A program made the position numbers and the translations under genes. A stretch of 64,000 bases of DNA. Source: Escherichia phage vB_EcoM_3A1_SA_NWU. Numbering within the stretch: position 1 is the stretch's first letter; every line of letters begins with the position of its first letter. The stretch lies in sequence record OR062524; one strand, given 5' to 3'. Of this stretch, positions 13,669 to 25,173 are shown in pieces. The notes beneath the pieces were generated by a model. It ran no database searches, was not told where the DNA came from, and saw nothing but the letters and a program-made list of their open reading frames with translations.

Positions 13669-14394
13669 TTACTTATTAATAATACCTGCAATATTAGGTT
13701 TGACAAAGGTCGATGGTTTCATGATCTTACCTTTATCATCAAAGAACACATACACTTTCTGTTTTTCATTATAAACAGCATGAACACCAGTGTATGCCCC
13801 TTCTGGACGATTGGCATTTCGTTCTTCAATTGCAGCGCATTCTTGTGCAATGGCTGAATCGATATCCGAAGTTTTCCAAGTTTTCAGCAACTGTTGTTTA
13901 GTTGGATACTTGGAATCATTACTTTTCAATACCTCTTTAATAACTTTCTTTTCTGGATATTTTGAACGGATTAGAGTGTCACGAGACATACGCATAATAC
14001 CAGCAGCCATTAGTGCCATTTGAACTGGCTCTGTAAATGTTTGTTCCAAAGCATCAAAATCAGTATACACAGTTGGAGTAAAAACATCGCCTACAGCATA
14101 GTCCAAGAAATTCATCGTATGTTCTTCACCAAAGAACATGTAGGTCAGATAACTGGATACTACAAAAATATCCGCTGCTGCATCCAAGAGTTCTACATGA
14201 TCGTTTACTTTCGCGGCTGTTTCATACTCTTTAAGCTCTTCACGAACGAATCCGATTTGGGACATAAATAGCTCTTGAGTGAATTCAGGTTGTTCACCAC
14301 CTCGTGCTTTAGCATTCCAATCAATCACGTGCTTCGCTGCATTTTTGAAAAATTCAGTATCGAACTTAATATCTTTAAAAAAATTCTCGATCAT
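13669..14394 (-). CDS. putative MazG-like nucleoside triphosphate pyrophosphohydrolase
   Basis: 241 aa; REELKEYETAAKVNDHVELLDAAADI resembles the EExxE...D metal-binding helix of all-alpha NTP pyrophosphatases. Confidence 0.35.
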   Translation of the reverse strand: MIENFFKDIKFDTEFFKNAAKHVIDWNAKARGGEQPEFTQELFMSQIGFVREELKEYETAAKVNDHVELLDAAADIFVVSSYLTYMFFGEEHTMNFLDYAVGDVFTPTVYTDFDALEQTFTEPVQMALMAAGIMRMSRDTLIRSKYPEKKVIKEVLKSNDSKYPTKQQLLKTWKTSDIDSAIAQECAAIEERNANRPEGAYTGVHAVYNEKQKVYVFFDDKGKIMKPSTFVKPNIAGIINK

Positions 14395-14403
14395 TATAAC
14401 TCC

Positions 14404-14586
14404 TTATTTAAAATAGCTTTCTAGAAAGTTGCTAATATTTACTACAGTCTCACCCATGTAAATTCCTGCGAAACCGAAAACAAGCATACGTGGAATATTG
14501 AAATACCATTTATCCGCTGGAAAAGATGCCAGAATTACAATAGCAATTGCTATCAGCATCATAAGAATTGTTGCTAAAATTATCAT
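14404..14586 (-). CDS. small membrane protein (60 aa from internal ATG; track gives 14404..14664)
   Basis: Hydrophobic MIILATILMMLIAIAIVILASF; GGAGG RBS; ATG overlaps stop of upstream ORF (ATGA). Confidence 0.45.
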   Translation of the reverse strand: MIILATILMMLIAIAIVILASFPADKWYFNIPRMLVFGFAGIYMGETVVNISNFLESYFK

Positions 14587-14777
14587 AAAAATGCCTCCAA
14601 GTATTTTGAACAATGATAAGCTAAGAAACAAGAAACTACCGCATACCCAACTCCAGACATACATGAATCAATCACAACACATACGGTTCTTTTCTTTGAA
14701 TTCTTAGGAAAGTTTTCCGAAGCATTCATACAATAAAAAGAAAGTACACTGAAAACGATTAAAATGGCTAAGAACAT
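14583..14777 (-). CDS. small membrane protein (64 aa)
   Basis: Hydrophobic N-terminus MFLAILIVFSVLSF; AAGGAGG RBS directly after ligase stop. Confidence 0.45.
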   Translation of the reverse strand: MFLAILIVFSVLSFYCMNASENFPKNSKKRTVCVVIDSCMSGVGYAVVSCFLAYHCSKYLEAFL

Positions 14778-14786
14778 TTTTCCTCC

Positions 14787-15914
14787 TTACTCTGCTGGTT
14801 CCCAAGTGCCTGGGATCATTTCTCGAATACGAACACCAACAGGTTTTGTTGGAATACCTTCATCTGAAAATTCTTCATACTCTATTTCAACGAACTGATT
14901 AATCAAGGTAGAAGCATTCTCTGCTTTACGATAATTGATAGTCTCATGAGCATCTTTACGCATTAAGAATTCGACTACTTTACCATTTTCCATCTCACCT
15001 GTCAACACTCCATCGCCATTTTTATCGCTTTTTGAATTTGTTACTTTAACTTCAAGGGTGTGGCGAGGCTTACGTTTAATAACGTCATAAGAACGTTTAT
15101 CAAATTCGTAAACTCCGTGAGCATTACGATATACTACACCTTCAGCTTTCTCAAGTAAAGCTTTTTCATAGAAAGCGTCAAACTGCTCTTGGTTTTCAAT
15201 ATACTCTGTATGAACTACACAAATAAGCTCGTCAAGACCATAATCTTCAACTACTGCCTTAAGAGCAGCAAGAGCATCAACACGTTTTTCAAACGGTAGA
15301 CCTGGAACTGGAATATCGTATACGTAATAATTCAGCAAAGGTGTATTTGCATTATGCTTCTTCCAGGCACTGTTAATTTGTTGCAGACTAAGGACACCTA
15401 ACCCAGCAAACACTTCACCATCAAGAGGATGACCAACAACTTCACTAATAAAGTTTGGAATACCTTTCCAATGAGGTGGCAGGTTATACACTTCCCCAGC
15501 TTTTGATAAACACTCCCCTTTCATGTTAATCATAGAACGTAACCCGTTCAATTTGTATTGTGCATAACCAGGGAACACAACCCTTTCAGGATAATCTTTA
15601 TAATCCTGGCATTTCATTGGTGTAGAAGGAACATGGTTTTCAGCTTCTTCTTTTGTTTTATAATAGCCATTCTTTAACTGTTTTGTCCATTTGGCAAAAG
15701 CTTCAAGTTCAGCTTGTTCTTCCGGTGTTGTTTCATTGGAACGACCAATGTTTTTTGCTTCTGCTGTATAAGATTTTTCTGTGATTTTTCCACCTACCCT
15801 TCCATGAGCTACAGTAACAACTGCACCATCTGTATACACTGTCCACTGTTTAAGTTTTCCTTTTGAATCTTTACCATACAGCGTTTGATTTGTTTGTTGC
15901 ATTAGTCCTCCCAT
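14787..15914 (-). CDS. ATP-dependent polynucleotide ligase (probable DNA ligase) with KxNGxR motif I
   Basis: 375 aa; motif I KLNGLR, III LDGEVF, IV EGVVYR, V VIKRK; C-terminal OB-like region. Confidence 0.6.
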   Translation of the reverse strand: MGGLMQQTNQTLYGKDSKGKLKQWTVYTDGAVVTVAHGRVGGKITEKSYTAEAKNIGRSNETTPEEQAELEAFAKWTKQLKNGYYKTKEEAENHVPSTPMKCQDYKDYPERVVFPGYAQYKLNGLRSMINMKGECLSKAGEVYNLPPHWKGIPNFISEVVGHPLDGEVFAGLGVLSLQQINSAWKKHNANTPLLNYYVYDIPVPGLPFEKRVDALAALKAVVEDYGLDELICVVHTEYIENQEQFDAFYEKALLEKAEGVVYRNAHGVYEFDKRSYDVIKRKPRHTLEVKVTNSKSDKNGDGVLTGEMENGKVVEFLMRKDAHETINYRKAENASTLINQFVEIEYEEFSDEGIPTKPVGVRIREMIPGTWEPAE

Positions 15915-16123
15915 TTAAAAACTGAAATTTTCAATCTGTTACACACTTCATCCAAATCTGCGTCGAGTAACGTTGTAGATGTTGCCAACATGTAATCAAT
16001 GCTTGTGAAACCTTGCCCTTTGGCATAGTCAAGCATATCGTCATACATATCTTCAATATCACTGTCATCAAAAGTAGCTATAAAATCCTCATCTCCGCTA
16101 CGAACATAAAATGCAGTACTCAT
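15902..16123 (-). CDS. small acidic protein (73 aa)
   Basis: ORF track; D/E-rich sequence. Confidence 0.45.
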   Translation of the reverse strand: MSTAFYVRSGDEDFIATFDDSDIEDMYDDMLDYAKGQGFTSIDYMLATSTTLLDADLDEVCNRLKISVFKWED

Positions 16124-16311
16124 TCTTCTTCATCCCAAGATTCAAAAGCACAACAATCATCGGTTTCTATAATACCAACACGTCCGCAGGTATTGCAAGT
16201 GATTTTATCTCCGTAGAATAAATAATTTTTATCACCCTCTGTGTTTACAGTTATGTCATTACTACCACAAGGGCAAGTCAGCCAACCAACAACAACGATA
16301 TCTTTTTTCAT
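16120..16311 (-). CDS. small zinc-ribbon protein (63 aa)
   Basis: CPCG...CNTCG motifs. Confidence 0.45.
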   Translation of the reverse strand: MKKDIVVVGWLTCPCGSNDITVNTEGDKNYLFYGDKITCNTCGRVGIIETDDCCAFESWDEEE

Positions 16312-16320
16312 AATCCCTCC

Positions 16321-16647
16321 TTAAGCGTTCAGTTCGTTGTTGAGTTCGTAAATCTCTTCTTGAAGAGCATCAATCTCTTCCTCCAAACGGGAGATCTCTT
16401 CTTTTAGATATACCATTTCGGATTCTTTCTCTTCTAATTCATTTTCAAATTTTACTTTATTAGCCTCATTTTCATAATGCAGTTCAGCGTAATCATCACG
16501 CATTTGTTCAATAAGATGAATCAGAGACAAGATATAATTGTCTCCCGTTTCATCACGCCACTCTTCACCGTGACGGAGAACGGTAATTCGTCCAGTATCT
16601 TCATCTAAAATTGTCTCATATTTACGATCATCTGTATAAATCTGCAT
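16321..16647 (-). CDS. coiled-coil protein (108 aa)
   Basis: Heptad-rich C-terminal half (EISRLEEEIDALQEEIYELNNEL). Confidence 0.45.
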   Translation of the reverse strand: MQIYTDDRKYETILDEDTGRITVLRHGEEWRDETGDNYILSLIHLIEQMRDDYAELHYENEANKVKFENELEEKESEMVYLKEEISRLEEEIDALQEEIYELNNELNA

Positions 16648-16656
16648 TATTTCTCC

Positions 16657-17061
16657 TTATTGAAGTTTAAGTGAACCACGAAGACGTTTCTCTTGCTGAT
16701 CACGGATATATTGTGGAACCTCGTGAATTGAATCATTACCGTGCCTATTTTCAACAATTAAAGAGATAACTTGATAACCAAACTCTTCAGCAAGAGCTAG
16801 ATAAGGTTTAAGTTCTTTCTCTGTGGTTGAAGTATTAGAAACAATAATCTTGTTAAGATTAGATGCCATAGCATCACGAACAATACCCTGACACCATGCG
16901 TGTGCTTTACCTACATTTTCTGGCTTCCAATCGTAAACACCACTCTCTGTGTAATGATATTGATCTGCCTCACAGATAGGCCAATAACCTTCAGAAATAA
17001 TTTCTGCTACTGTAGATTTACCAGCACCTGAAACGCCACGTAAAATGATAAGTTGTTTCAT
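16657..17061 (-). CDS. polynucleotide 5'-kinase (T4 Pnk kinase-domain-like P-loop protein)
   Basis: 134 aa; ILRGVSGAGKST P-loop, EADQYH and SNTS segments align with T4 Pnk kinase motifs as recalled. Confidence 0.6.
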   Translation of the reverse strand: MKQLIILRGVSGAGKSTVAEIISEGYWPICEADQYHYTESGVYDWKPENVGKAHAWCQGIVRDAMASNLNKIIVSNTSTTEKELKPYLALAEEFGYQVISLIVENRHGNDSIHEVPQYIRDQQEKRLRGSLKLQ

Positions 17062-17994
17062 TTATCCTCCAAAAAAGTTTTCGATTTTTTCACGTCGCTC
17101 TTGCTGATTTAAAGCAGCCCATTGAGTCTTCGTAAAATTATTTCGAATCCATTCTAATAAAGCGTAATATTCTTCGTCAACAATTTGTTTGGCATTTTTC
17201 GGATTATCCCAAATCAGATCCCACTTTTTATCTCCACCGCGCATAAGAAACTTCTTAGTAAGATAGTGTGGTGATTTAATTTTTAAAAGTAAGTTGAACG
17301 GATAGTTTGTTTCACGAACTACAAACCCTTCGTGTTTACAATGTTTAGACATTTCAACAACATCTGAAAACTTAACCATTGGATAAACTTCAGGACGCTT
17401 AAATTTGGTGACAGAAGCAATTCCATCAAGAGCACCTTCAGGTAACATAAAACTTGTCCCATCAGGGTTTTGAATTCTGGCACCAATTAAGTATGCACCT
17501 GGTTCTTCTTCGACAATATGCGGATCAGAAGGATCACAGATTTCAAAAAGGAAAGTTGCTTTTGCACTCTCTGTCCATTTGATGAAATGTTCTATGTCAT
17601 CACACTCTGAAACAATATGATTCTTTGCAATACTTGCAAAATCTGATTCAAGGCTTCCTGTTGTCGATACAATAAGTTGACCTTTATATACACCTACAGA
17701 GGCCATAAAACCATTTACTTTACGAACCACATCTACAAGTTCATCCGCTGGTAGATCTGTGCCATTCTCAAAATGATTAAAAATCTTAGTGAAAGGCCAA
17801 ATAACAACATTGTCATCAGCGTCAACAACGATTCCGCGACATTCCAGAAGACGAGAATCAATGCCCCATAAGTTATCCCAGAAAACTTTGTTCTTATACT
17901 TAAGAACAGATAGACCAGAATACTCTCCTTCTTTATATGTTTTCTTATGAACTAAACCTTTTTCAACCAAATCGTCGCAGTTAAATTTAGCCAC
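17062..17994 (-). CDS. RNA ligase-like nucleotidyltransferase
   Basis: 310 aa; motif I KVNGF, IV EGFVVR, V LLKIK; sits between kinase and phosphoesterase with 1-nt gaps. Confidence 0.6.
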   Translation of the reverse strand: MAKFNCDDLVEKGLVHKKTYKEGEYSGLSVLKYKNKVFWDNLWGIDSRLLECRGIVVDADDNVVIWPFTKIFNHFENGTDLPADELVDVVRKVNGFMASVGVYKGQLIVSTTGSLESDFASIAKNHIVSECDDIEHFIKWTESAKATFLFEICDPSDPHIVEEEPGAYLIGARIQNPDGTSFMLPEGALDGIASVTKFKRPEVYPMVKFSDVVEMSKHCKHEGFVVRETNYPFNLLLKIKSPHYLTKKFLMRGGDKKWDLIWDNPKNAKQIVDEEYYALLEWIRNNFTKTQWAALNQQERREKIENFFGG

Positions 17995-17995
17995 A

Positions 17996-18547
17996 TTACT
18001 CTCCTTTGATTATTTTGTGATGGTCTACAGTCACGATATCTCGTTTACTCATCATAGAAATTATCTCATCAAAATGCAAGATTTTTCCATGTGCATCCCA
18101 ACCCACATCTAACATTTTACCATAAGCTTCATCAGGGAAAGATCCGTGGGAATGCCCGTGTAGCATGATTGATCCACGACCTTGTTTATTCCAGGAGGCC
18201 ATAGGGTAATGGCTTAAGACGAAGAACAGCTTCTGATATTTCACTTCGTCATAATACACCACTTCTCCATACTCTGCAAGCACTTCTCGGTGTTTGCTGT
18301 AATCATGGTTCCCAACACAGTAGGTGATATCTCCTTGAAGACGAGAAGCAATTTTACGGGTATCTTCTTCAGTTCCGAAACAGAAGTCGCCCAAATGCCA
18401 CATCTTAACACCAGGAGTAGTAGCACATTTGTTCCATGCTTCGATCAAGGCTTCTGTCATGTGGTCCATATCTTCCCACGGACGATATTCAGGAGCAAAC
18501 TCTCGAATACGTTTATGCATAAAATGCAAATCGCTTGTAATAAACAT
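17996..18547 (-). CDS. calcineurin-like metallophosphoesterase
   Basis: 183 aa; DLHF, GDFCFG, GNHD, HGHSH motifs. Confidence 0.8.
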   Translation of the reverse strand: MFITSDLHFMHKRIREFAPEYRPWEDMDHMTEALIEAWNKCATTPGVKMWHLGDFCFGTEEDTRKIASRLQGDITYCVGNHDYSKHREVLAEYGEVVYYDEVKYQKLFFVLSHYPMASWNKQGRGSIMLHGHSHGSFPDEAYGKMLDVGWDAHGKILHFDEIISMMSKRDIVTVDHHKIIKGE

Positions 18548-18903
18548 TAGTATAATCCCTCGCTAAATAATTCATGGTCGTGACCATTACGCTCATGGTC
18601 GATCTGGTCAGCATTTTCCGCGATGATGTAAGCATCCGCACGACTCCACCAATTGTAATACTGATCGATAAAGCCTTGATTATCTGGTGTGCACAAAGTT
18701 TTGTTGATTACACCTGCTTCTTTCAACACGTTTAACTGTGCATATAGTACAGGATTTGCATGTCGAACACAAGGAATAATTAACTCTTCACCATTATTCA
18801 AAATATACTTATTTGCAGCACAGACGATAACACGTTGCGCATAATGACCCTCACCCATCCAGGTAAGAGGTTGGTAACAAATATTGTTTTCAATACCACT
18901 CAT
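18547..18903 (-). CDS. hypothetical protein, first gene of the RNA-repair operon
   Basis: 118 aa; stop overlaps phosphoesterase start (TAATG). Confidence 0.5.
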   Translation of the reverse strand: MSGIENNICYQPLTWMGEGHYAQRVIVCAANKYILNNGEELIIPCVRHANPVLYAQLNVLKEAGVINKTLCTPDNQGFIDQYYNWWSRADAYIIAENADQIDHERNGHDHELFSEGLY

Positions 18904-18909
18904 TGTTTC

Positions 18910-19053
18910 CTAATCCTCCTCTCTTAAGTTATCCTCGAAAAAACTAGTGTCTGGAAGTAAAAGATCATTACTTGTGTCGGGCCAATCCTCTTCTTCTCGG
19001 TAGATAAAGTAACCTTCGTCCTCTTCTTGTTCCGACCAAACCGAATGATGCAT
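18910..19053 (-). CDS. small highly acidic protein (47 aa, unannotated)
   Basis: Own translation MHHSVWSEQEEDEGYFIYREEEDWPDTSNDLLLPDTSFFEDNLREED; AAGGAG RBS. Confidence 0.35.
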   Translation of the reverse strand: MHHSVWSEQEEDEGYFIYREEEDWPDTSNDLLLPDTSFFEDNLREED

Positions 19054-19062
19054 GTTCTCTCC

Positions 19063-19407
19063 TTAGTAGTGCACACGAATCATTTTAATACCATAACGCA
19101 GCATGGATTCTTTTGCAAGCATGAATTTATCCCCAGCGGCGGGATTAGAAGTATGCACGAAAATGGTAGGTGAACCAAAGCAAGGTTTACCAAACGCCAG
19201 AAGTTCTTCCAGGTACAGGAAAACATCATACCCATCTTGGTCTGACTCCATACCTAAATCATTGTCAAAAGACCACTCGGTTACTCTTCGATACAGTTTA
19301 GCAGGATCGTTGAGAAAGGCCATAGCTTCTTGTGACGTTTTAAACCAAATTGCATCCTCCTGTCCATAGTCGGCTGGGTTCCGCATATCATCTATCCAAA
19401 CTTTCAT
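19063..19407 (-). CDS. hypothetical protein (114 aa)
   Basis: ORF track. Confidence 0.45.
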   Translation of the reverse strand: MKVWIDDMRNPADYGQEDAIWFKTSQEAMAFLNDPAKLYRRVTEWSFDNDLGMESDQDGYDVFLYLEELLAFGKPCFGSPTIFVHTSNPAAGDKFMLAKESMLRYGIKMIRVHY

Positions 19408-19417
19408 ATAACCTCCT

Positions 19418-19888
19418 TTAAGCTGGCATGATTAAAAAAGAACTTTCCACTTCAAAATGCCAATCATCAACAAGCCCTGGTTCCCAATCCTTCTCTTCAT
19501 GGAAAGAGCAAATCCAACGGTACATACCTGGCGGTGTATTCTCAACATCTTCTGGCAACCCATAATCCAAAGCTGTCTTACCGTTCTCTGTAAAACTAGG
19601 ATGGAGATTAGGAGCCTTCAGTACAGAAACCATACCTCCAACATCCACAGCTACGATCCACTCTGTCATGTATGGGCTGTCATATTGAGGCTCATCAGAA
19701 CCTACCTCAACAGCCTCTGTGCGTAAGATGATAATAGCCTGCTCTGTGATTGGGGCTTTGACAATATAACCGTGGTCCTCAAAAAGATCGATAACCTCGA
19801 ACTCATCGCCGTTTTCGACACCATAACTCTTATTCAAAGAGATAAACTTCGGGTTATCATCGTAAGCTTTAGTTACTTTAATTCTCAT
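19418..19888 (-). CDS. hypothetical protein (156 aa)
   Basis: ORF track. Confidence 0.5.
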   Translation of the reverse strand: MRIKVTKAYDDNPKFISLNKSYGVENGDEFEVIDLFEDHGYIVKAPITEQAIIILRTEAVEVGSDEPQYDSPYMTEWIVAVDVGGMVSVLKAPNLHPSFTENGKTALDYGLPEDVENTPPGMYRWICSFHEEKDWEPGLVDDWHFEVESSFLIMPA

Positions 19889-20109
19889 TTTTCCTCCTTC
19901 ACTTTAACCTCAAATTCTACAGGATTACCCTCAATGTAAAAACACTGATACTCTGCCTTATCATCATCATCACGAGGCCAAGTTACCAAGGAGTTATAGC
20001 AATCTTCTGGTGCTTTGAAGATGGTTTTAGTCTCCACAGTAACATTCCCATTAAGTGTTGCCAATACCACCCACCCAGCTACAGGGATCATAGTGCCTCC
20101 ACTTTCCAC
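19885..20109 (-). CDS. hypothetical protein (74 aa)
   Basis: ORF track; 4-nt overlap with neighbour. Confidence 0.45.
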   Translation of the reverse strand: MESGGTMIPVAGWVVLATLNGNVTVETKTIFKAPEDCYNSLVTWPRDDDDKAEYQCFYIEGNPVEFEVKVKEEK

Positions 20110-23160: not shown

Positions 23161-23235
23161 GGCCCTGTAGCTCAATGGGAGAGCTGTCGGCTCATAACCG
23201 ATAGGTAGCTGGATCGAAACCAGCCAGGGCCACCA
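23161..23235 (+). tRNA. tRNA-Met (anticodon CAU), CCA encoded
   Basis: Manual fold: acceptor GGCCCTG/CAGGGCC, anticodon loop CTCATAA, T-arm GCTGG-ATCGAAA-CCAGC. Confidence 0.8.
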
Positions 23236-23237
23236 AA

Positions 23238-23312
23238 GTCTTTATGGTGTAATGGATAGCACAGGAGTCTTCTAAACTCTTAGTCAAGGTTCGATTCCTT
23301 GTAAAGACACCA
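23238..23312 (+). tRNA. tRNA-Arg (anticodon UCU), CCA encoded
   Basis: Manual fold: acceptor GTCTTTA/TAAAGAC, anticodon loop CTTCTAA, T-loop TTCGATT. Confidence 0.75.
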
Positions 23313-23508
23313 GAACATTTTAACATGAATTAGCTCAAGTGATTTGAACCCACTACTGATCATGGTGGCAGAGAATGAGGCAAGTATGTCAGACATTATA
23401 AACAAAGGCCACGGTTATATTAGAAGACATAAATGCTCGAAGAGCACCGTTCGTGGAGAACGGGGGTTGGTGGAGTCACCATTCATGGTAAAATGTTTTA
23501 AAAAACTA

Positions 23509-23538
23509 TTGACAACAAACATTATTTTATGTTAGATT
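23509..23538 (+). promoter_or_regulatory. possible internal promoter TTGACA-N18-TAGATT before tRNA-Ser
   Basis: ttgacaacaaacattattttatgttagatt, about 10 nt before tRNA start. Confidence 0.35.
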
Positions 23539-23546
23539 ATAAGTAT

Positions 23547-23637
23547 GGAAGGGCAAATCGATGTGGCGACGAAAACGGTCTTGAAAACCGCCGAGCTTGA
23601 AAGAGCCTTGGGAGTTCGACTCTCCCTCCTTCCGCCA
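23547..23637 (+). tRNA. tRNA-Ser (anticodon UGA), long variable arm, CCA encoded
   Basis: Manual fold: acceptor GGAAGGG/TCCTTCC, anticodon loop CTTGAAA, T-arm GGGAG-TTCGACT-CTCCC. Confidence 0.75.
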
Positions 23638-23642
23638 GATTA

Positions 23643-23728
23643 GGTAGATTGGTGAAATGGTAGCCACGACAGTTTGCTAAACTGTAGTCGGAAACGGCGT
23701 GTAGGTTCGAGTCCTACATCTACCGCCA
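23643..23728 (+). tRNA. tRNA-Ser (anticodon GCU), long variable arm, CCA encoded
   Basis: Manual fold: acceptor GGTAGAT/ATCTACC, anticodon loop TTGCTAA, variable-arm hairpin with GAAA loop. Confidence 0.75.
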
Positions 23729-23858
23729 AGTTCTTTTTAATGTAGCTTACTTTAGCAGAGTAAATCTTCGGCAAGTGGCGGTAACCACTTTACCGATACC
23801 TCATAGTTAGTGGTGTGAACACTGGCTATTTTAAAAAGAATTTAAATATTAGTATTTA

Positions 23859-23946
23859 GGTGAGTTAATTCCGTAGGGGTAGCGGGGCAGACTGTAAATC
23901 TGTTATCATTGCGATTCGGGTGGTTCGACTCCATCACTCACCACCA
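23859..23946 (+). tRNA. tRNA-Tyr (anticodon GUA), class II, atypical 5-nt connector before D-stem
   Basis: Acceptor GGTGAGT/ACTCACC 7/7, anticodon loop CTGTAAA, T-loop TTCGACT, CCA encoded. Confidence 0.6.
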
Positions 23947-23952
23947 AATTAA

Positions 23953-24038
23953 GATGAGTTGGCTGAATGGTTTAAGCGGCGGACTGTTAATCCGTGTTCG
24001 AAAGAACAATATAGGTTCGAATCCTATACTCATCGCCA
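23953..24038 (+). tRNA. class II tRNA (long variable arm) with anticodon GUU (nominally Asn); identity uncertain
   Basis: Acceptor GATGAGT/ACTCATC, 3-bp D-stem, anticodon loop CTGTTAA, variable hairpin GTTC-GAAA-GAAC, T-arm ATAGG-TTCGAAT-CCTAT, CCA encoded. Confidence 0.55.
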
Positions 24039-24045
24039 GAATTAT

Positions 24046-24122
24046 GGACTTGTAGAGTTAAGGTAAACCCCCAGTCGCCAATAGGCTTCTGGAATTGCAG
24101 GTATCGAATCCTGCCGAGTCCC
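24046..24122 (+). ncRNA. tRNA-like element with intact acceptor pairing but no canonical anticodon arm
   Basis: GGACTTG...CGAGTCC acceptor pairing and T-arm-like GCAGG-tatcgaat-CCTGC (8-nt loop); no 5-bp/7-nt anticodon hairpin found by hand. Confidence 0.3.
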
Positions 24123-24128
24123 AGCATT

Positions 24129-24203
24129 GCTCCTATAGTATAATGGCTATTACAACGGTTTTGTAATCCGTGGATCTCTGTTCGATTCAGTGTGGGAGCA
24201 CCA
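24129..24203 (+). tRNA. tRNA-Thr (anticodon UGU), CCA encoded
   Basis: Acceptor GCTCCTA/TGGGAGC, anticodon loop TTTGTAA, T-loop TTCGATT. Confidence 0.65.
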
Positions 24204-24519
24204 ACACAACATTAAGAGCACTGTGATTGATCGTCGTATCCTGTGCACAAGGTCTGCTCGAAAGACAGTGTTCTTAGTATTGTGTTGATCACAAAAAGAG
24301 TCACCCGAAACTTGACCGGAGTAGGGTTGGATGGGGCAAAATGAGAAGCGGCTCTCCCATCGACAGCAACGAAGAATAATATTTGACTTTGGTTTTGTAT
24401 TATTTTAAGTTAGCTTACCGAACGTAGGGCTAGTCACCCAACGGGATACTCGTCACTGTCCCAATCAATAAAAGTCTTGACAACAAATAGTAAAATGTAG
24501 TATAGTAAATATATATGGC
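24204..24519 (+). ncRNA. 315-nt non-coding spacer with long-range pairing; candidate stable RNA
   Basis: aagagcactgtg ... acagtgttctt pairing, repeated agtcaccc(g/a)aac motif; no ORF or tRNA fold. Confidence 0.25.
24477..24506 (+). promoter_or_regulatory. sigma70-like promoter TTGACA-N18-TATAGT before tRNA-Gly
   Basis: cttgacaacaaatagtaaaatgtagtatagt. Confidence 0.4.
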
Positions 24520-24593
24520 GTTCTTGGTGTAGCGGTAGCATTCCGTCCTTCCAAGTCGGCGGCACGAGTTCGATCCTCGTAGAACGCTCCAAA
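24520..24593 (+). tRNA. tRNA-Gly (anticodon UCC), CCA encoded
   Basis: Acceptor GCGTTCT/AGAACGC, anticodon loop CTTCCAA, T-arm ACGAG-TTCGATC-CTCGT, discriminator U. Confidence 0.75.
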
Positions 24594-24689
24594 TTATTTA
24601 ATAAAGGGTTGCCAGAAAACTTTCTCTTTTACTCATGGTTTTCTCCTTCTCTCACACTTCTTCTGGTTGCCCTTCATTAAATGATTTAT

Positions 24690-24765
24690 TGGTTTGTAGT
24701 GTAGTCCGGTAGCACACGACACTTTGACTGTCGTAGGTTTGGTTCAAATCCAGACAGACCAGCCA
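24690..24765 (+). tRNA. tRNA-Gln (anticodon UUG), U1-A72, CCA encoded
   Basis: Acceptor TGGTTTG/CAGACCA, anticodon stem CGACA/TGTCG with loop CTTTGAC. Confidence 0.75.
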
Positions 24766-24858
24766 TATAACAAAGGTGAGTCACTACCTTAAGTGTGAAG
24801 TTAAAAACGAGGAGCCGCCGAACACTTTCTTTTGCGGTGTACCTTTAGAATGTTATCA

Positions 24859-24935
24859 CGGGACGTAGCACAGCTTGGTAGTGCGCTCGCTTTGGGAGCG
24901 AGAGGTCGAGTGTTCGAATCACTCCGTCCCGACCA
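24859..24935 (+). tRNA. tRNA-Pro (anticodon UGG), CCA encoded
   Basis: Acceptor CGGGACG/CGTCCCG, anticodon stem CTCGC/GCGAG loop TTTGGGA. Confidence 0.8.
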
Positions 24936-24941
24936 ATTAAA

Positions 24942-25015
24942 TGTTTCGTAGTTCAATGGTAGAACCCACGACTGATAATCGTGAGACACAAGTTCGATTC
25001 TTGTCGAAACAACCA
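24942..25015 (+). tRNA. tRNA-Ile (anticodon GAU), CCA encoded
   Basis: Acceptor TGTTTCG/CGAAACA, anticodon stem CACGA/TCGTG loop CTGATAA. Confidence 0.75.
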
Positions 25016-25017
25016 GT

Positions 25018-25077
25018 TTCCCGTTAGACTTACAGGATAAGAGTTCCACAGCTTATTGTGATGCTGGTTCGAATCCA
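25018..25077 (+). ncRNA. tRNA-like element (good acceptor and T-arm, degenerate anticodon arm)
   Basis: TTCCCGT...ACGGGAT pairing, T-arm GCTGG-TTCGAAT-CCAGC, no canonical anticodon hairpin. Confidence 0.3.
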
Positions 25078-25094
25078 GCACGGGATACATAATA

Positions 25095-25173
25095 GCGGGA
25101 TAGAGGAGTCTGGTCGTCCTCGCCAGTTTCATATGCTGGAGATCATCGGTTCAAATCCGATTCCCGCCTCCAA
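25095..25173 (+). tRNA. tRNA with CAU anticodon (second Met-type or lysidine-Ile), A1/C72 mismatch, CCA encoded
   Basis: Acceptor AGCGGGA/TCCCGCC, anticodon stem CCAGT/GCTGG loop TTCATAT. Confidence 0.65.

What the first reader, a model, noticed from the sequence alone, without database searches (positions are those of the whole stretch)
16657..18903. Split Pnkp-like RNA healing-and-sealing operon (phosphoesterase, RNA ligase, polynucleotide kinase) with an unknown leader gene
Four translationally coupled genes on the minus strand: an unknown 118-aa protein (18547..18903), a calcineurin-type metallophosphoesterase (DLHF/GDxxxG/GNHD/HGHSH), a nucleotidyltransferase ligase with motif I KVNG, IV EGFVVR, V LKIK, and a P-loop kinase resembling the T4 Pnk kinase domain. 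Together these are the three activities needed to repair 2',3'-cyclic-phosphate/5'-OH RNA breaks, as in bacterial Pnkp, but here as separate genes. In a phage this suggests counter-defence against host anticodon nucleases or other RNA-cleaving toxins. The unknown first gene and the upstream 47-aa acidic ORF may be parts of the same system.
Basis: partly seen in the sequence, partly recalled or inferred. Interest (0 to 1): 0.8.

Follow-up and report, generated by a model that had tools for sequence, protein, structure and literature searches.

The report
Phage RNA break-repair gene cluster
An E. coli phage of the phAPEC8 group carries adjacent genes for an RNA ligase, an RNA 5'-kinase and a phosphate-removing enzyme that together should rejoin RNAs (probably tRNAs) cut by host defence nucleases; this type of cluster has already been predicted by others but never tested biochemically.

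Summary
The window is a Phapecoctavirus, 100% identical to Escherichia phage vB_EcoM_10C3_SA_NWU over the 5.5 kb compared.

- **Ligase:** Rnl1 family. Its profile matches T4 RNA ligase 1 at E=1e-25, not a DNA ligase.
- **Phosphoesterase:** a calcineurin-type enzyme of the uncharacterised aq_1665/COG4186 branch, not the lambda-phosphatase-like branch found in Pnkp.
- **Linkage:** ligase, kinase and phosphoesterase co-occur within 8 kb in 33 of 43 diverged phage lineages, in shuffled gene orders.
- **Missed gene:** a cREC (cyclic-phosphate-processing receiver) gene at 19063-19407.
- **"Unknown leader":** a homologue of T4 Arn.3. This is a very large family with no solved fold relative and is usually not linked to RNA repair.

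Iyer et al. 2022 described such neighbourhoods in rV5-like phages, and GenBank records already name the three enzymes. I rate it a new member of a known, predicted kind, of moderate interest.

The parts
16657..17061 (-). Stand-alone polynucleotide 5'-kinase (134 aa, P-loop; no fused 3'-phosphatase domain)
17062..17994 (-). Rnl1-family ATP-dependent RNA ligase (310 aa, GTG start)
   Evidence: Pfam RNA_lig_T4_1 scores 57.1 bits against a cut-off of 28.3, covering model positions 1-227 of 227. PHROG 562 E=8.5e-70. The profile hits T4 Rnl1 (2c5u) at E=1.3e-25. Invariant residues K92/G95 (motif I), F150-E151 (III), E222-G223 (IV) and K238/K240 (V) are shown.
17996..18547 (-). Calcineurin-type binuclear metallophosphoesterase (183 aa), the proposed 2',3'-cyclic phosphodiesterase and 2'/3'-phosphatase
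   Evidence: Pfam Metallophos scores 24.9 bits against a cut-off of 21.5, and PHROG 547 gives E=6.5e-56. The profile hits only Aquifex aq_1665 (1xm7) at E=4.9e-24. Invariant residues are D6, H8, D54, N80, H81, H113, H132 and H134. It lies within 8 kb of the ligase in 36 of 43 lineages.
18547..18903 (-). T4 Arn.3-like protein (118 aa), function unknown; overlaps the phosphoesterase start (TAATG) but is probably not a core part of the module
18910..19053 (-). Acidic 47-aa ORF, function unknown, restricted to the phAPEC8 lineage
   Evidence: PHROG 18323 E=9e-35. It has its own ribosome-binding site. It was found only in phAPEC8-type loci: 5 hits in the first locus set and 3 of 80 in the Arn.3-anchored set.
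   Evidence: Pfam PF20274 cREC_REC E=3.9e-17, 63.1 bits against a cut-off of 27. Invariant residues are D6, D7, D48, D50, N88, P89 and K94, with near-invariant T86 and S87. It sits next to the ligase in rV5-like phages. Predicted role taken from PMC7824862 and PMC9503650.
13669..14394 (-). MazG/PRA-PH-type nucleotide pyrophosphohydrolase (241 aa), a possible accessory gene in the published neighbourhood type
   Evidence: Pfam PRA-PH E=2.7e-6. Annotated 'nucleotide pyrophosphohydrolase' in ESCO5. MazG is listed as a component of the rV5-type neighbourhood in PMC9503650.
23161..25172 (+). Cluster of 10-11 phage tRNA genes at the start of the rightward arm (context: tRNA-centred counter-defence)
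   Evidence: ARAGORN tRNAs. Rfam, including an extra one at 23859-23943.

Best explanation
The cluster is a phage RNA end-healing and end-sealing module built from separate proteins. The proposed sequence is as follows.
1. A host metal-independent RNase, such as an anticodon nuclease or a HEPN-type or toxin RNase, cuts tRNA or another RNA. This leaves a 2',3'-cyclic phosphate and a 5'-OH.
2. The binuclear metallophosphoesterase, possibly helped or preceded by the cREC protein opening the cyclic phosphate, removes the 3'-terminal phosphate to give a 2',3'-diol.
3. The stand-alone Pnk-type kinase transfers a phosphate from an NTP to the 5'-OH, with Asp33 as general base.
4. The Rnl1-type ligase is adenylylated on Lys92, activates the 5'-phosphate and seals the break.

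Compared with T4 (Pnkp plus Rnl1), the HAD 3'-phosphatase domain of Pnkp is replaced by a separate metallophosphoesterase. This is the same chemical logic as bacterial Pnkp, but only the kinase is homologous to a Pnkp module.

Shown here: family and fold assignments, conservation of catalytic residues, and conserved linkage of the three genes.
Inferred: substrates, order of steps, the role of cREC, and the counter-defence purpose.

The Arn.3-like and 47-aa genes are most likely neighbours from the genome backbone rather than components of the module.
For: - **Ligase.** Pfam RNA_lig_T4_1 is above threshold. The profile hits T4 Rnl1 at E=1.3e-25. Nucleotidyltransferase motifs I, III, IV and V are invariant.
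- **Phosphoesterase.** All metal-binding motifs are invariant.
- **Linkage.** Kinase and phosphoesterase both lie within 8 kb of the ligase in 33 of 43 lineages below 60% identity. Four different gene orders occur, in Escherichia, Aeromonas, Vibrio, Pseudomonas and Acinetobacter phages. The kinase is nearly absent from control loci.
- **Complementary pattern.** In Streptomyces phage LukeCage the ligase is paired with a full kinase-HAD_PNKP protein (E=2.3e-51), and no metallophosphoesterase was detected within about 4 kb.
- **cREC.** Assigned by Pfam with its acidic active-site residues conserved.
- **Literature.** Published predictions describe the same kind of neighbourhood (PMC9503650 section 3.7.3; PMC7824862). 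The ligase-kinase pair in Pakpunavirus has been read the same way (PMC12846349).
- **Context.** A cluster of 10-11 tRNA genes lies 4 kb away.
Against: - No activity has been measured for any protein of this ligase, kinase or phosphoesterase subfamily; I found no such study.
- The phosphoesterase's only solved relative, aq_1665, has unknown function, and there is no significant sequence match to the Pnkp or lambda phosphatases.
- The ligase aligns with T4 Rnl1 only over the nucleotidyltransferase domain. About 57 aa remain beyond the aligned region, against about 107 in T4, so the T4 C-terminal domain appears to have no full counterpart and tRNA specificity cannot be inferred. That this T4 domain confers tRNA specificity is from my own knowledge.
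- The ligase scores far below the T4 RnlA equivalog cut-off, 23.9 against 242 bits.
- A natural phAPEC8-like variant (L094) lacks the ligase and kinase but keeps cREC, the Arn.3-like gene and the phosphoesterase. Those genes can therefore be retained without the ligase.
- The cluster sits among DNA replication and repair genes, next to a DNA ligase.
Confidence: 0.72

Rival explanations
1. The upstream half (cREC, Arn.3-like protein, phosphoesterase) mainly destroys nucleotide-derived immune signals or by-products, such as cyclic oligonucleotides, cyclic ADP-ribose derivatives or ADPr>P. On this view it does not heal RNA ends, and the ligase-kinase pair is a separate cassette that happens to lie beside it.
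For: The L094 variant keeps p156, cREC, the 47-aa ORF, the Arn.3-like gene and the phosphoesterase, but replaces the ligase and kinase with an unrelated 112-aa ORF carrying an HExxH motif. The authors who defined cREC predict that it may act on cyclic ADPr as well as on RNA ends. In Ackermannviridae, Arn.3-like genes lie near a gene annotated as an ADP-ribose-binding protein.
Against: The phosphoesterase family tracks the ligase and kinase in 33 of 43 diverged lineages, often directly adjacent to them, and most of those lineages lack both cREC and the Arn.3-like gene. The stand-alone kinase lacks a 3'-phosphatase, which the phosphoesterase would supply. A kinase with a fused HAD phosphatase occurs in a locus where no phosphoesterase was detected.
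Confidence: 0.12
2. The module processes DNA ends rather than RNA ends, carrying out 5'-phosphorylation and 3'-phosphate removal. It would work with the nearby ATP-dependent DNA ligase during phage replication or recombination.
For: An ATP-dependent DNA ligase lies 0.7 kb downstream and is within 8 kb in 16 of 43 lineages. The neighbours include an RdgC-like protein, exonucleases and DNA polymerase subunits. The phosphoesterase has a weak NCBIfam hit to the ligase-associated PdeM family (E=0.0034, far below cut-off). T4 Pnk-type kinases also accept DNA (my own knowledge).
Against: The ligase inside the cluster is of the Rnl1 RNA-ligase family, and the phage already has a dedicated DNA ligase. 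The ligase-kinase-phosphoesterase linkage holds in many lineages where no DNA ligase is nearby. cREC is known only from RNA-repair and ADPr contexts.
Confidence: 0.08
3. The ligase serves mainly as a tail-fibre attachment factor, like the second function of T4 gp63. On this view the adjacent kinase and phosphoesterase are unrelated nucleotide-metabolism enzymes.
For: PHROG 562 and many GenBank records carry the label 'RNA ligase and tail fiber protein attachment catalyst'. The leftward arm also encodes nucleotide-metabolism genes: ribonucleotide reductase, thymidylate synthase and MazG.
Against: That label is inherited from T4 gp63, and the protein scores far below the T4 RnlA equivalog threshold. 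All catalytic ligase residues are invariant across the family. The kinase is structurally a polynucleotide kinase, not an NMP kinase. The gene lies in the early/middle arm, far from the tail-fibre genes.
Confidence: 0.04

Closest known systems
Phage T4 tRNA repair pathway: Pnkp (PseT) plus RNA ligase 1 (RnlA/gp63), which counters the PrrC anticodon nuclease
   Different: The kinase is a 134-aa stand-alone protein without the HAD 3'-phosphatase domain. A separate metallophosphoesterase and a cREC protein take its place. The ligase is a distant subfamily: it scores below the T4 RnlA equivalog cut-off, a single-sequence search finds no T4 hit, and the region beyond the catalytic domain is much shorter than in T4. 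In this phage the genes are adjacent; in T4 they are not, which is my own knowledge.
Bacterial Pnkp of the Pnkp-Hen1 system (Clostridium thermocellum) and the Pnkp1-Rnl-Hen1 complex
   Different: Here there are three separate genes rather than one polypeptide. The phosphoesterase is of the aq_1665/COG4186 branch, with no significant match to the Pnkp or lambda-phosphatase branch. The ligase is Rnl1-type rather than the Pnkp ligase module. No Hen1 methyltransferase was found among the neighbours scanned.
Sirtuin-centred phage RNA-repair neighbourhood, configuration 2 of Iyer, Burroughs, Anantharaman and Aravind 2022 (PMC9503650), with phage rV5 and Proteus phage Mydo as prototypes
   Same: The gene set is the same: a T4-like ligase, cREC, a small kinase, MazG and a calcineurin-like phosphoesterase. 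The rV5-like phage nomo has orthologues of the ligase (48% identity), cREC, kinase and phosphoesterase.
   Different: No sirtuin lies in the cluster or anywhere in the window. In the near-identical phage ESCO5 the only annotated Sir2 gene is about 31 kb away. Between cREC and the phosphoesterase sit a 47-aa ORF and an Arn.3-like gene instead. The paper calls the kinase a 'nucleotide kinase', whereas the fold search here places it with the polynucleotide kinases.
T4 Arn.3 (for the 118-aa 'leader' gene)
   Same: It is 45% identical over residues 7-118 and shares the conserved C-terminal ...ELFSE(G/D)LY end.
   Different: T4 Arn.3 is 152 aa. It lies in the arn transcript between arn.4 and arn.2, not beside RNA-repair genes. 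Its function is unknown (bioRxiv 10.64898/2026.06.19.733364).

Membership tests
Rnl1-type ATP-dependent RNA ligase (Pfam PF09511 RNA_lig_T4_1) | Scores above the family's curated threshold over the whole catalytic domain | tested here: met
   57.1 bits against a cut-off of 28.3, covering model positions 1-227 of 227.
Rnl1-type ATP-dependent RNA ligase (Pfam PF09511 RNA_lig_T4_1) | Covalent nucleotidyltransferase motifs I (KxxG lysine), III, IV (EG) and V (KxK) | tested here: met
   K92/G95, F150-E151, E222-G223 and K238/K240 are invariant in 7 sequences down to 27% identity. They align with the corresponding T4 Rnl1 motifs.
Rnl1-type ATP-dependent RNA ligase (Pfam PF09511 RNA_lig_T4_1) | Closest solved relative is an RNA ligase, not a DNA ligase | tested here: met
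   T4 Rnl1 2c5u, 9do4 and 5tt6 hit at E=1e-25 to 3e-24; the next hits are 1.5e-5 or weaker.
T4 RnlA equivalog (NCBIfam TIGR02308) | Full-length score above the equivalog cut-off, including the C-terminal domain | tested here: not met
   23.9 bits against a cut-off of 242.25. The alignment to T4 Rnl1 ends at residue 253 of 310, with about 57 aa left over against about 107 in T4.
Rnl1-type ATP-dependent RNA ligase (Pfam PF09511 RNA_lig_T4_1) | Seals 5'-phosphate/3'-OH RNA ends through ligase-AMP and AppRNA intermediates | not testable with these tools
   Needs biochemistry.
Polynucleotide 5'-kinase clade (T4 Pnk / CthPnk) | P-loop plus the catalytic Asp general base that contacts the 5'-OH | tested here: met
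   G12, G14, K15 and D33 are invariant. D33 aligns with the Asp of the CthPnk 'SSD' motif in the profile alignment.
Polynucleotide 5'-kinase clade (T4 Pnk / CthPnk) | Fold closer to polynucleotide kinases than to nucleoside or nucleotide kinases | tested here: met
T4-type bifunctional Pnkp | C-terminal HAD (DxDxT) 3'-phosphatase domain fused to the kinase | tested here: not met
   The protein is 134 aa and consists of the kinase domain only. A fused HAD_PNKP domain is seen in Streptomyces phage LukeCage for comparison.
Bacterial Pnkp (Pnkp-Hen1) | Kinase, phosphatase and ligase in a single polypeptide | tested here: not met
   There are three separate ORFs, each with its own start codon and ribosome-binding site.
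Bacterial Pnkp (Pnkp-Hen1) | Lambda-phosphatase-like metallophosphoesterase module | tested here: not met
   The family profile finds only aq_1665 (E=4.9e-24). No Pnkp or lambda-phosphatase chain appears even at E<=10. This is a sequence test only; the fold was not compared.
Bacterial Pnkp (Pnkp-Hen1) | Hen1 2'-O-methyltransferase partner | tested here: not met
   No methyltransferase domain was found in the 20 neighbouring ORFs scanned between 10.3 and 21.7 kb.
Calcineurin-like metallophosphoesterase superfamily | Motifs DxH, GD, GNH(D/E), H and GHxH, and a score above the Pfam threshold | tested here: met
   Metallophos scores 24.9 bits against a cut-off of 21.5. D6, H8, D54, N80, H81, H113, H132 and H134 are invariant in 25 sequences.
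Calcineurin-like metallophosphoesterase superfamily | 2',3'-cyclic phosphodiesterase and 2'/3'-phosphomonoesterase activity on RNA ends | not testable with these tools
   Inferred only from gene linkage and from the precedent of CthPnkp and lambda phosphatase (abstract of PMC2190708).
cREC (Pfam PF20274) | Score above threshold and receiver-type acidic active site | tested here: met
   63.1 bits against a cut-off of 27. D6, D7, D48, D50 and K94 are invariant; T86 and S87 are nearly invariant.
Sirtuin-centred phage RNA-repair neighbourhood, configuration 2 (PMC9503650) | Sirtuin gene coupled to the ligase, cREC and kinase genes | tested here: not met
   My Sir2 HMMs found no Sir2 in the three phAPEC8-type reference loci or in the phAPEC8-type IMG/VR loci. 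ESCO5 carries a Sir2 gene (PF02146, E=1.7e-20) about 31 kb away, outside the window. rV5-like phages have two Sir2-like genes next to cREC.
Sirtuin-centred phage RNA-repair neighbourhood, configuration 2 (PMC9503650) | T4-like ligase, cREC, small kinase, MazG and a calcineurin-like phosphoesterase in one neighbourhood | tested here: met
   All five lie between 13669 and 19407.

The most novel reading that the evidence does not exclude
The Arn.3-like 118-aa protein may be an enzyme with a previously unseen fold. Its invariant residues R47-H48, Q76, D80, R88 and S114-E115 would act on phosphorylated RNA ends or on nucleotide or ADP-ribose-derived molecules. In phAPEC8-type phages it would take over the step that the adjacent sirtuins are proposed to perform in rV5-type clusters, namely removal or transfer of a 2'-phosphate. 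That would give a first function to a family present in T4 and in more than 6,500 sequence clusters.
Probability: 0.1. Interest if true: 0.75.

Novelty: new member of a known kind. Interest (0 to 1): 0.4.

Why it matters
tRNA- and RNA-cleaving nucleases are a major class of bacterial anti-phage defence. Besides encoding replacement tRNAs, the only experimentally established repair-based phage answer is T4 Pnkp plus Rnl1.

The ligase, kinase and phosphoesterase trio characterised here is widespread. The ligase occurs in 739 phage records, including therapy-relevant Escherichia, Klebsiella, Pseudomonas and Acinetobacter phages. The trio uses a different 3'-end-healing enzyme that nobody has tested.

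Showing that it works would do four things:
- extend the T4 paradigm to many phage families;
- assign a function to the aq_1665/COG4186 phosphoesterases and to cREC;
- help predict which phages escape RNase-based defences;
- supply new RNA-end-modifying enzymes for laboratory use.

For this particular window the result is mostly confirmation and refinement of existing predictions.

Tried and rejected
- **Single-sequence PDB searches.** They gave nothing for the ligase and only P-loop noise for the kinase. Family profiles were needed.
- **The 'anti-restriction nuclease' label on the 118-aa gene.** Rejected. The protein is homologous to T4 Arn.3, not Arn, so the label was most likely propagated from the gene name arn.3.
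- **The 118-aa gene as a regular partner of RNA repair.** Rejected: the ligase is nearby in only 3 of 80 family loci. In T4, Ackermannviridae and Henunavirus it sits in other contexts. In L102-type phages it belongs to a backbone block of p156, DNA ligase, MazG and the Arn.3-like gene, with no RNA ligase.
- **A sirtuin in the window.** None was found by my Sir2 HMMs in the phAPEC8-type loci or in the neighbours scanned.
- **Relating the phosphoesterase to the Pnkp or lambda phosphatases by sequence.** There is no hit even at E<=10.
- **Burroughs and Aravind 2016 (NAR 44:8525).** It could not be read because it is not held.
- **The first related-loci run, with 7 ligases.** It failed for lack of a conserved stretch; a 5-sequence alignment worked.
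- **Promoter and terminator scan.** It gave no more sites than shuffled sequence and no site specific to the cluster.
Full report
**What the window is.** Window 14500-20000 is 100% identical to Escherichia phage vB_EcoM_10C3_SA_NWU. It is 97-99% identical to many Phapecoctavirus genomes such as ESCO5, Schickermooser and phAPEC8_ev052. The finding lies in the leftward-transcribed arm, which runs from about 22.2 kb down to position 1. That arm also carries ribonucleotide reductase, thymidylate synthase, exonucleases, an RdgC-like protein, a MazG-type pyrophosphohydrolase and an ATP-dependent DNA ligase. The rightward arm begins with 10-11 tRNA genes at 23161-25172 and then encodes virion proteins.

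**Checking the observation.**
- The junctions are a TAATG overlap (118-aa ORF to phosphoesterase), TAA-N-GTG (phosphoesterase to ligase) and TAAATG (ligase to kinase). Each start has a GGAG-type ribosome-binding site.
- The quoted motifs are all present.
- Tight packing is a property of the whole arm, so 'operon' is not specific to these four genes.
- A consensus promoter and terminator scan found no more sites than shuffled sequence.

**The ligase (17062-17994).**
- It matches Pfam RNA_lig_T4_1 over the entire model, at 57.1 bits against a cut-off of 28.3. It matches PHROG 562 at E=8.5e-70.
- A profile of seven homologues down to 27% identity hits T4 RNA ligase 1 (2c5u, 9do4, 5tt6) at E=1e-25 over the nucleotidyltransferase domain. 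The next hits are 1.5e-5 or weaker: 8uce, labelled an ATP-dependent DNA ligase, and PAB1020.
- Motif residues K92/G95, F150-E151, E222-G223 and K238/K240 are invariant.
- It is a distant subfamily. A single-sequence search finds no PDB hit. The T4 RnlA equivalog model scores 23.9 bits against a cut-off of 242. Only about 57 residues follow the catalytic domain, against about 107 in T4.
- The subfamily occurs in 739 phage records, from rV5-like, Pakpunavirus, Vibrio, Aeromonas, Acinetobacter and Streptomyces phages.

**The kinase (16657-17061).**
- Pfam places it in AAA_33.
- A 26-sequence profile gives its best full-length PDB hits to the kinase domain of C. thermocellum Pnkp (4gp7, 4gp6, 4jst, 4mde; E=4e-7). 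T4 Pnk follows at about 1e-6 and Pnkp1 at 1.6e-6.
- The P-loop and Asp33, which aligns with the Pnk general base, are invariant.
- It is therefore a polynucleotide kinase by fold. At 134 aa it lacks the HAD phosphatase domain of T4 Pnkp.

**The phosphoesterase (17996-18547).**
- It passes the Metallophos threshold, and all metal-ligand motifs are invariant in 25 homologues.
- Its only significant solved relative is Aquifex aq_1665 (1xm7, E=4.9e-24), a structural-genomics protein of unknown function. No Pnkp or lambda-phosphatase chain appears even at E<=10.
- The resemblance to Pnkp is therefore one of chemistry, not of subfamily.

**Gene linkage.** I fetched 79 IMG/VR loci around ligase homologues and searched their six-frame ORFs with HMMs built from the window proteins.
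- Among 43 ligase lineages below 60% identity, the kinase is within 8 kb in 35, the phosphoesterase in 36 and both in 33.
- Four orders occur: phosphoesterase-ligase-kinase, kinase-ligase-phosphoesterase, ligase-kinase-phosphoesterase and ligase-phosphoesterase-kinase. In rV5-like phages the genes are arranged divergently.
- In 80 control loci anchored on the Arn.3-like family, the kinase appears only 3 times.
- In Streptomyces phage LukeCage the ligase is paired with a full kinase-HAD_PNKP protein (E=2.3e-51), and no metallophosphoesterase was detected within about 4 kb. This fits the idea that the metallophosphoesterase replaces the missing HAD phosphatase.

- The 114-aa ORF at 19063-19407 is a cREC domain protein (PF20274, E=3.9e-17). 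Its receiver-type acidic residues D6, D7, D48, D50, T86/S87 and K94 are conserved.
- cREC was defined and predicted to open cyclic phosphates by Iyer and colleagues (PMC7824862).
- The same group described a neighbourhood in phage rV5 and Proteus phage Mydo with a sirtuin, a T4-like tRNA ligase, cREC, a nucleotide kinase, MazG and sometimes a calcineurin-like phosphoesterase (PMC9503650 section 3.7.3).
- The window has all of these except the sirtuin. A MazG/PRA-PH protein is at 13669-14394.
- In the near-identical ESCO5 genome a Sir2 gene lies about 31 kb away, outside the window. The rV5-like phage nomo has two Sir2-like genes directly after ligase-cREC.
- cREC accompanies the ligase in only 5 of 43 lineages and Sir2 in 4 of 43. 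Both are accessories rather than core parts.

**The 'unknown leader' (18547-18903).**
- It is 45% identical to the C-terminal part of T4 Arn.3. The 'anti-restriction nuclease' label in some records most likely comes from that gene name.
- The function of arn.3 is still unknown (bioRxiv 10.64898/2026.06.19.733364).
- The family is very large: 1,525 phage records and 6,516 clusters at 50% identity. The domain always ends at the protein C-terminus and is sometimes tandemly duplicated.
- Invariant residues are R47, H48, Q76, G77, F78, R88, S114 and Y118; D80 and E115 are nearly invariant.
- Of 80 family loci, the ligase is nearby in only 3, two of them phAPEC8-type. T4, Ackermannviridae and Henunavirus carry the gene in other contexts.
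- In L102-type phages it belongs to a backbone block of p156, DNA ligase, MazG and the Arn.3-like gene, with no RNA ligase.
- I conclude that its position here reflects genome backbone rather than proven function, although translational coupling to the phosphoesterase leaves a small chance of a role.
- The 47-aa acidic ORF is confined to the phAPEC8 lineage.

**An informative variant.** In the IMG/VR phage of locus L094 (92% identity on the Arn.3-like gene), the ligase and kinase are replaced by a 112-aa ORF with an HExxH motif. The genes for p156, cREC, the 47-aa ORF, the Arn.3-like protein and the phosphoesterase remain. Ligase and kinase therefore behave as one dispensable cassette. This also keeps alive the rival view that the upstream genes have a job of their own.

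**Mechanism proposed.**
1. A host metal-independent RNase leaves a 2',3'-cyclic phosphate and a 5'-OH.
2. The metallophosphoesterase, perhaps after cREC opens the ring, yields a 2',3'-diol.
3. The kinase phosphorylates the 5'-OH.
4. The Rnl1-type ligase seals the break through Lys92-AMP.

The family assignments, catalytic-residue conservation and linkage are shown here. The substrates, the order of steps, the cREC role and the defence targets are inferred. The inference draws on T4 Pnkp/Rnl1 and on CthPnkp and lambda phosphatase, which hydrolyse 2',3'-cyclic phosphates (abstract of PMC2190708).

**Novelty.**
- GenBank already labels these genes 'putative polynucleotide kinase', 'putative RNA ligase' and 'putative phosphoesterase'.
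- The neighbourhood type is published.
- A 2025 Pakpunavirus paper reads the homologous ligase-kinase pair as tRNA repair and notes the missing phosphatase domain (PMC12846349).
- I found no biochemical study of this subfamily.
- It is therefore a new member of a known, predicted kind.
- What this analysis adds is the fold-level placement of the kinase, the quantified three-gene linkage, the complementary pattern with HAD-fused kinases, and the identification of the leader gene as a member of the orphan Arn.3 family.

Noticed in passing
window 18547-18903; T4 locus L004 3018-3476: The Arn.3 family (T4 Arn.3; precomputed Pfam tag PF26092) is very large, with 6,516 clusters at 50% identity and 1,525 phage records. 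It has a confident AlphaFold model with no PDB fold relative and a set of invariant polar residues. It is an uncharacterised and possibly enzymatic phage family, worth studying regardless of this cluster.
   Followed up: partly
L094 8914-9252 (IMGVR_UViG_3300014004_000001): In this phAPEC8-like environmental phage the RNA ligase and kinase genes are replaced by a 112-aa ORF carrying an HEAIH (HExxH) motif, while the flanking genes are kept. The ORF has no Pfam match.
   Followed up: partly
window 23859-23943 (+): Rfam calls an eleventh tRNA here (39 bits, cut-off 29) that ARAGORN did not report. It lies between tRNA-Ser and tRNA-Asn.
   Followed up: no
window 16321-16647, 18547-18903 and 19063-19407, as annotated in GenBank relatives: Several product names in public records look wrong or uninformative. 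The Arn.3-like gene is called 'anti-restriction nuclease'. The 108-aa coiled-coil protein is called 'DNA polymerase I' or 'hol-like chemotaxis'. cREC is called 'putative RNA ligase and tail attachment protein'. In phage nomo the kinase homologue is called 'putative phosphoesterase'.
   Followed up: partly
one search hit list (for example MG065650.1 and OP562383.1): Records named 'Campylobacter phage B15' and 'Acinetobacter phage vB_AbaM_ABPW7' are 97.6-99.1% identical to E. coli phapecoctaviruses over this 5.5 kb. This suggests contamination or a wrongly assigned host in those records.
   Followed up: no
window about 20545, compared with ESCO5 locus L003 20503-21108: ESCO5 and phage REC carry an extra ORF of about 600 bp here, annotated as an HNH endonuclease in ESCO5, that the window lacks. 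It is probably a homing-endonuclease insertion polymorphism.
   Followed up: no
L010 5346-8172 and L011 7325-8903: In Pakpunavirus and Thalassavirus phages the ligase-kinase(-phosphoesterase) cluster lies beside genes for ribose-phosphate pyrophosphokinase and nicotinamide phosphoribosyltransferase (NAD salvage). RNA-repair genes therefore sit in counter-defence islands in those lineages.
   Followed up: no
window 19418-19888; L102 2943-3329: The 156-aa protein upstream of cREC (PHROG 4953, no Pfam match) recurs immediately upstream of an ATP-dependent DNA ligase in another group of phages of about 140-150 kb. Its function is unknown.
   Followed up: partly
ESCO5 record positions 17518-18318 and 99449-100042 (outside the window): The phage lineage encodes a Sir2-family protein (PF02146, E=1.7e-20) about 31 kb from the cluster. 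It also encodes an annotated 'nucleotidyltransferase' (197 aa, no Pfam hit) about 3 kb beyond the window end. Either could be an unlinked partner of the RNA-repair genes.
   Followed up: partly
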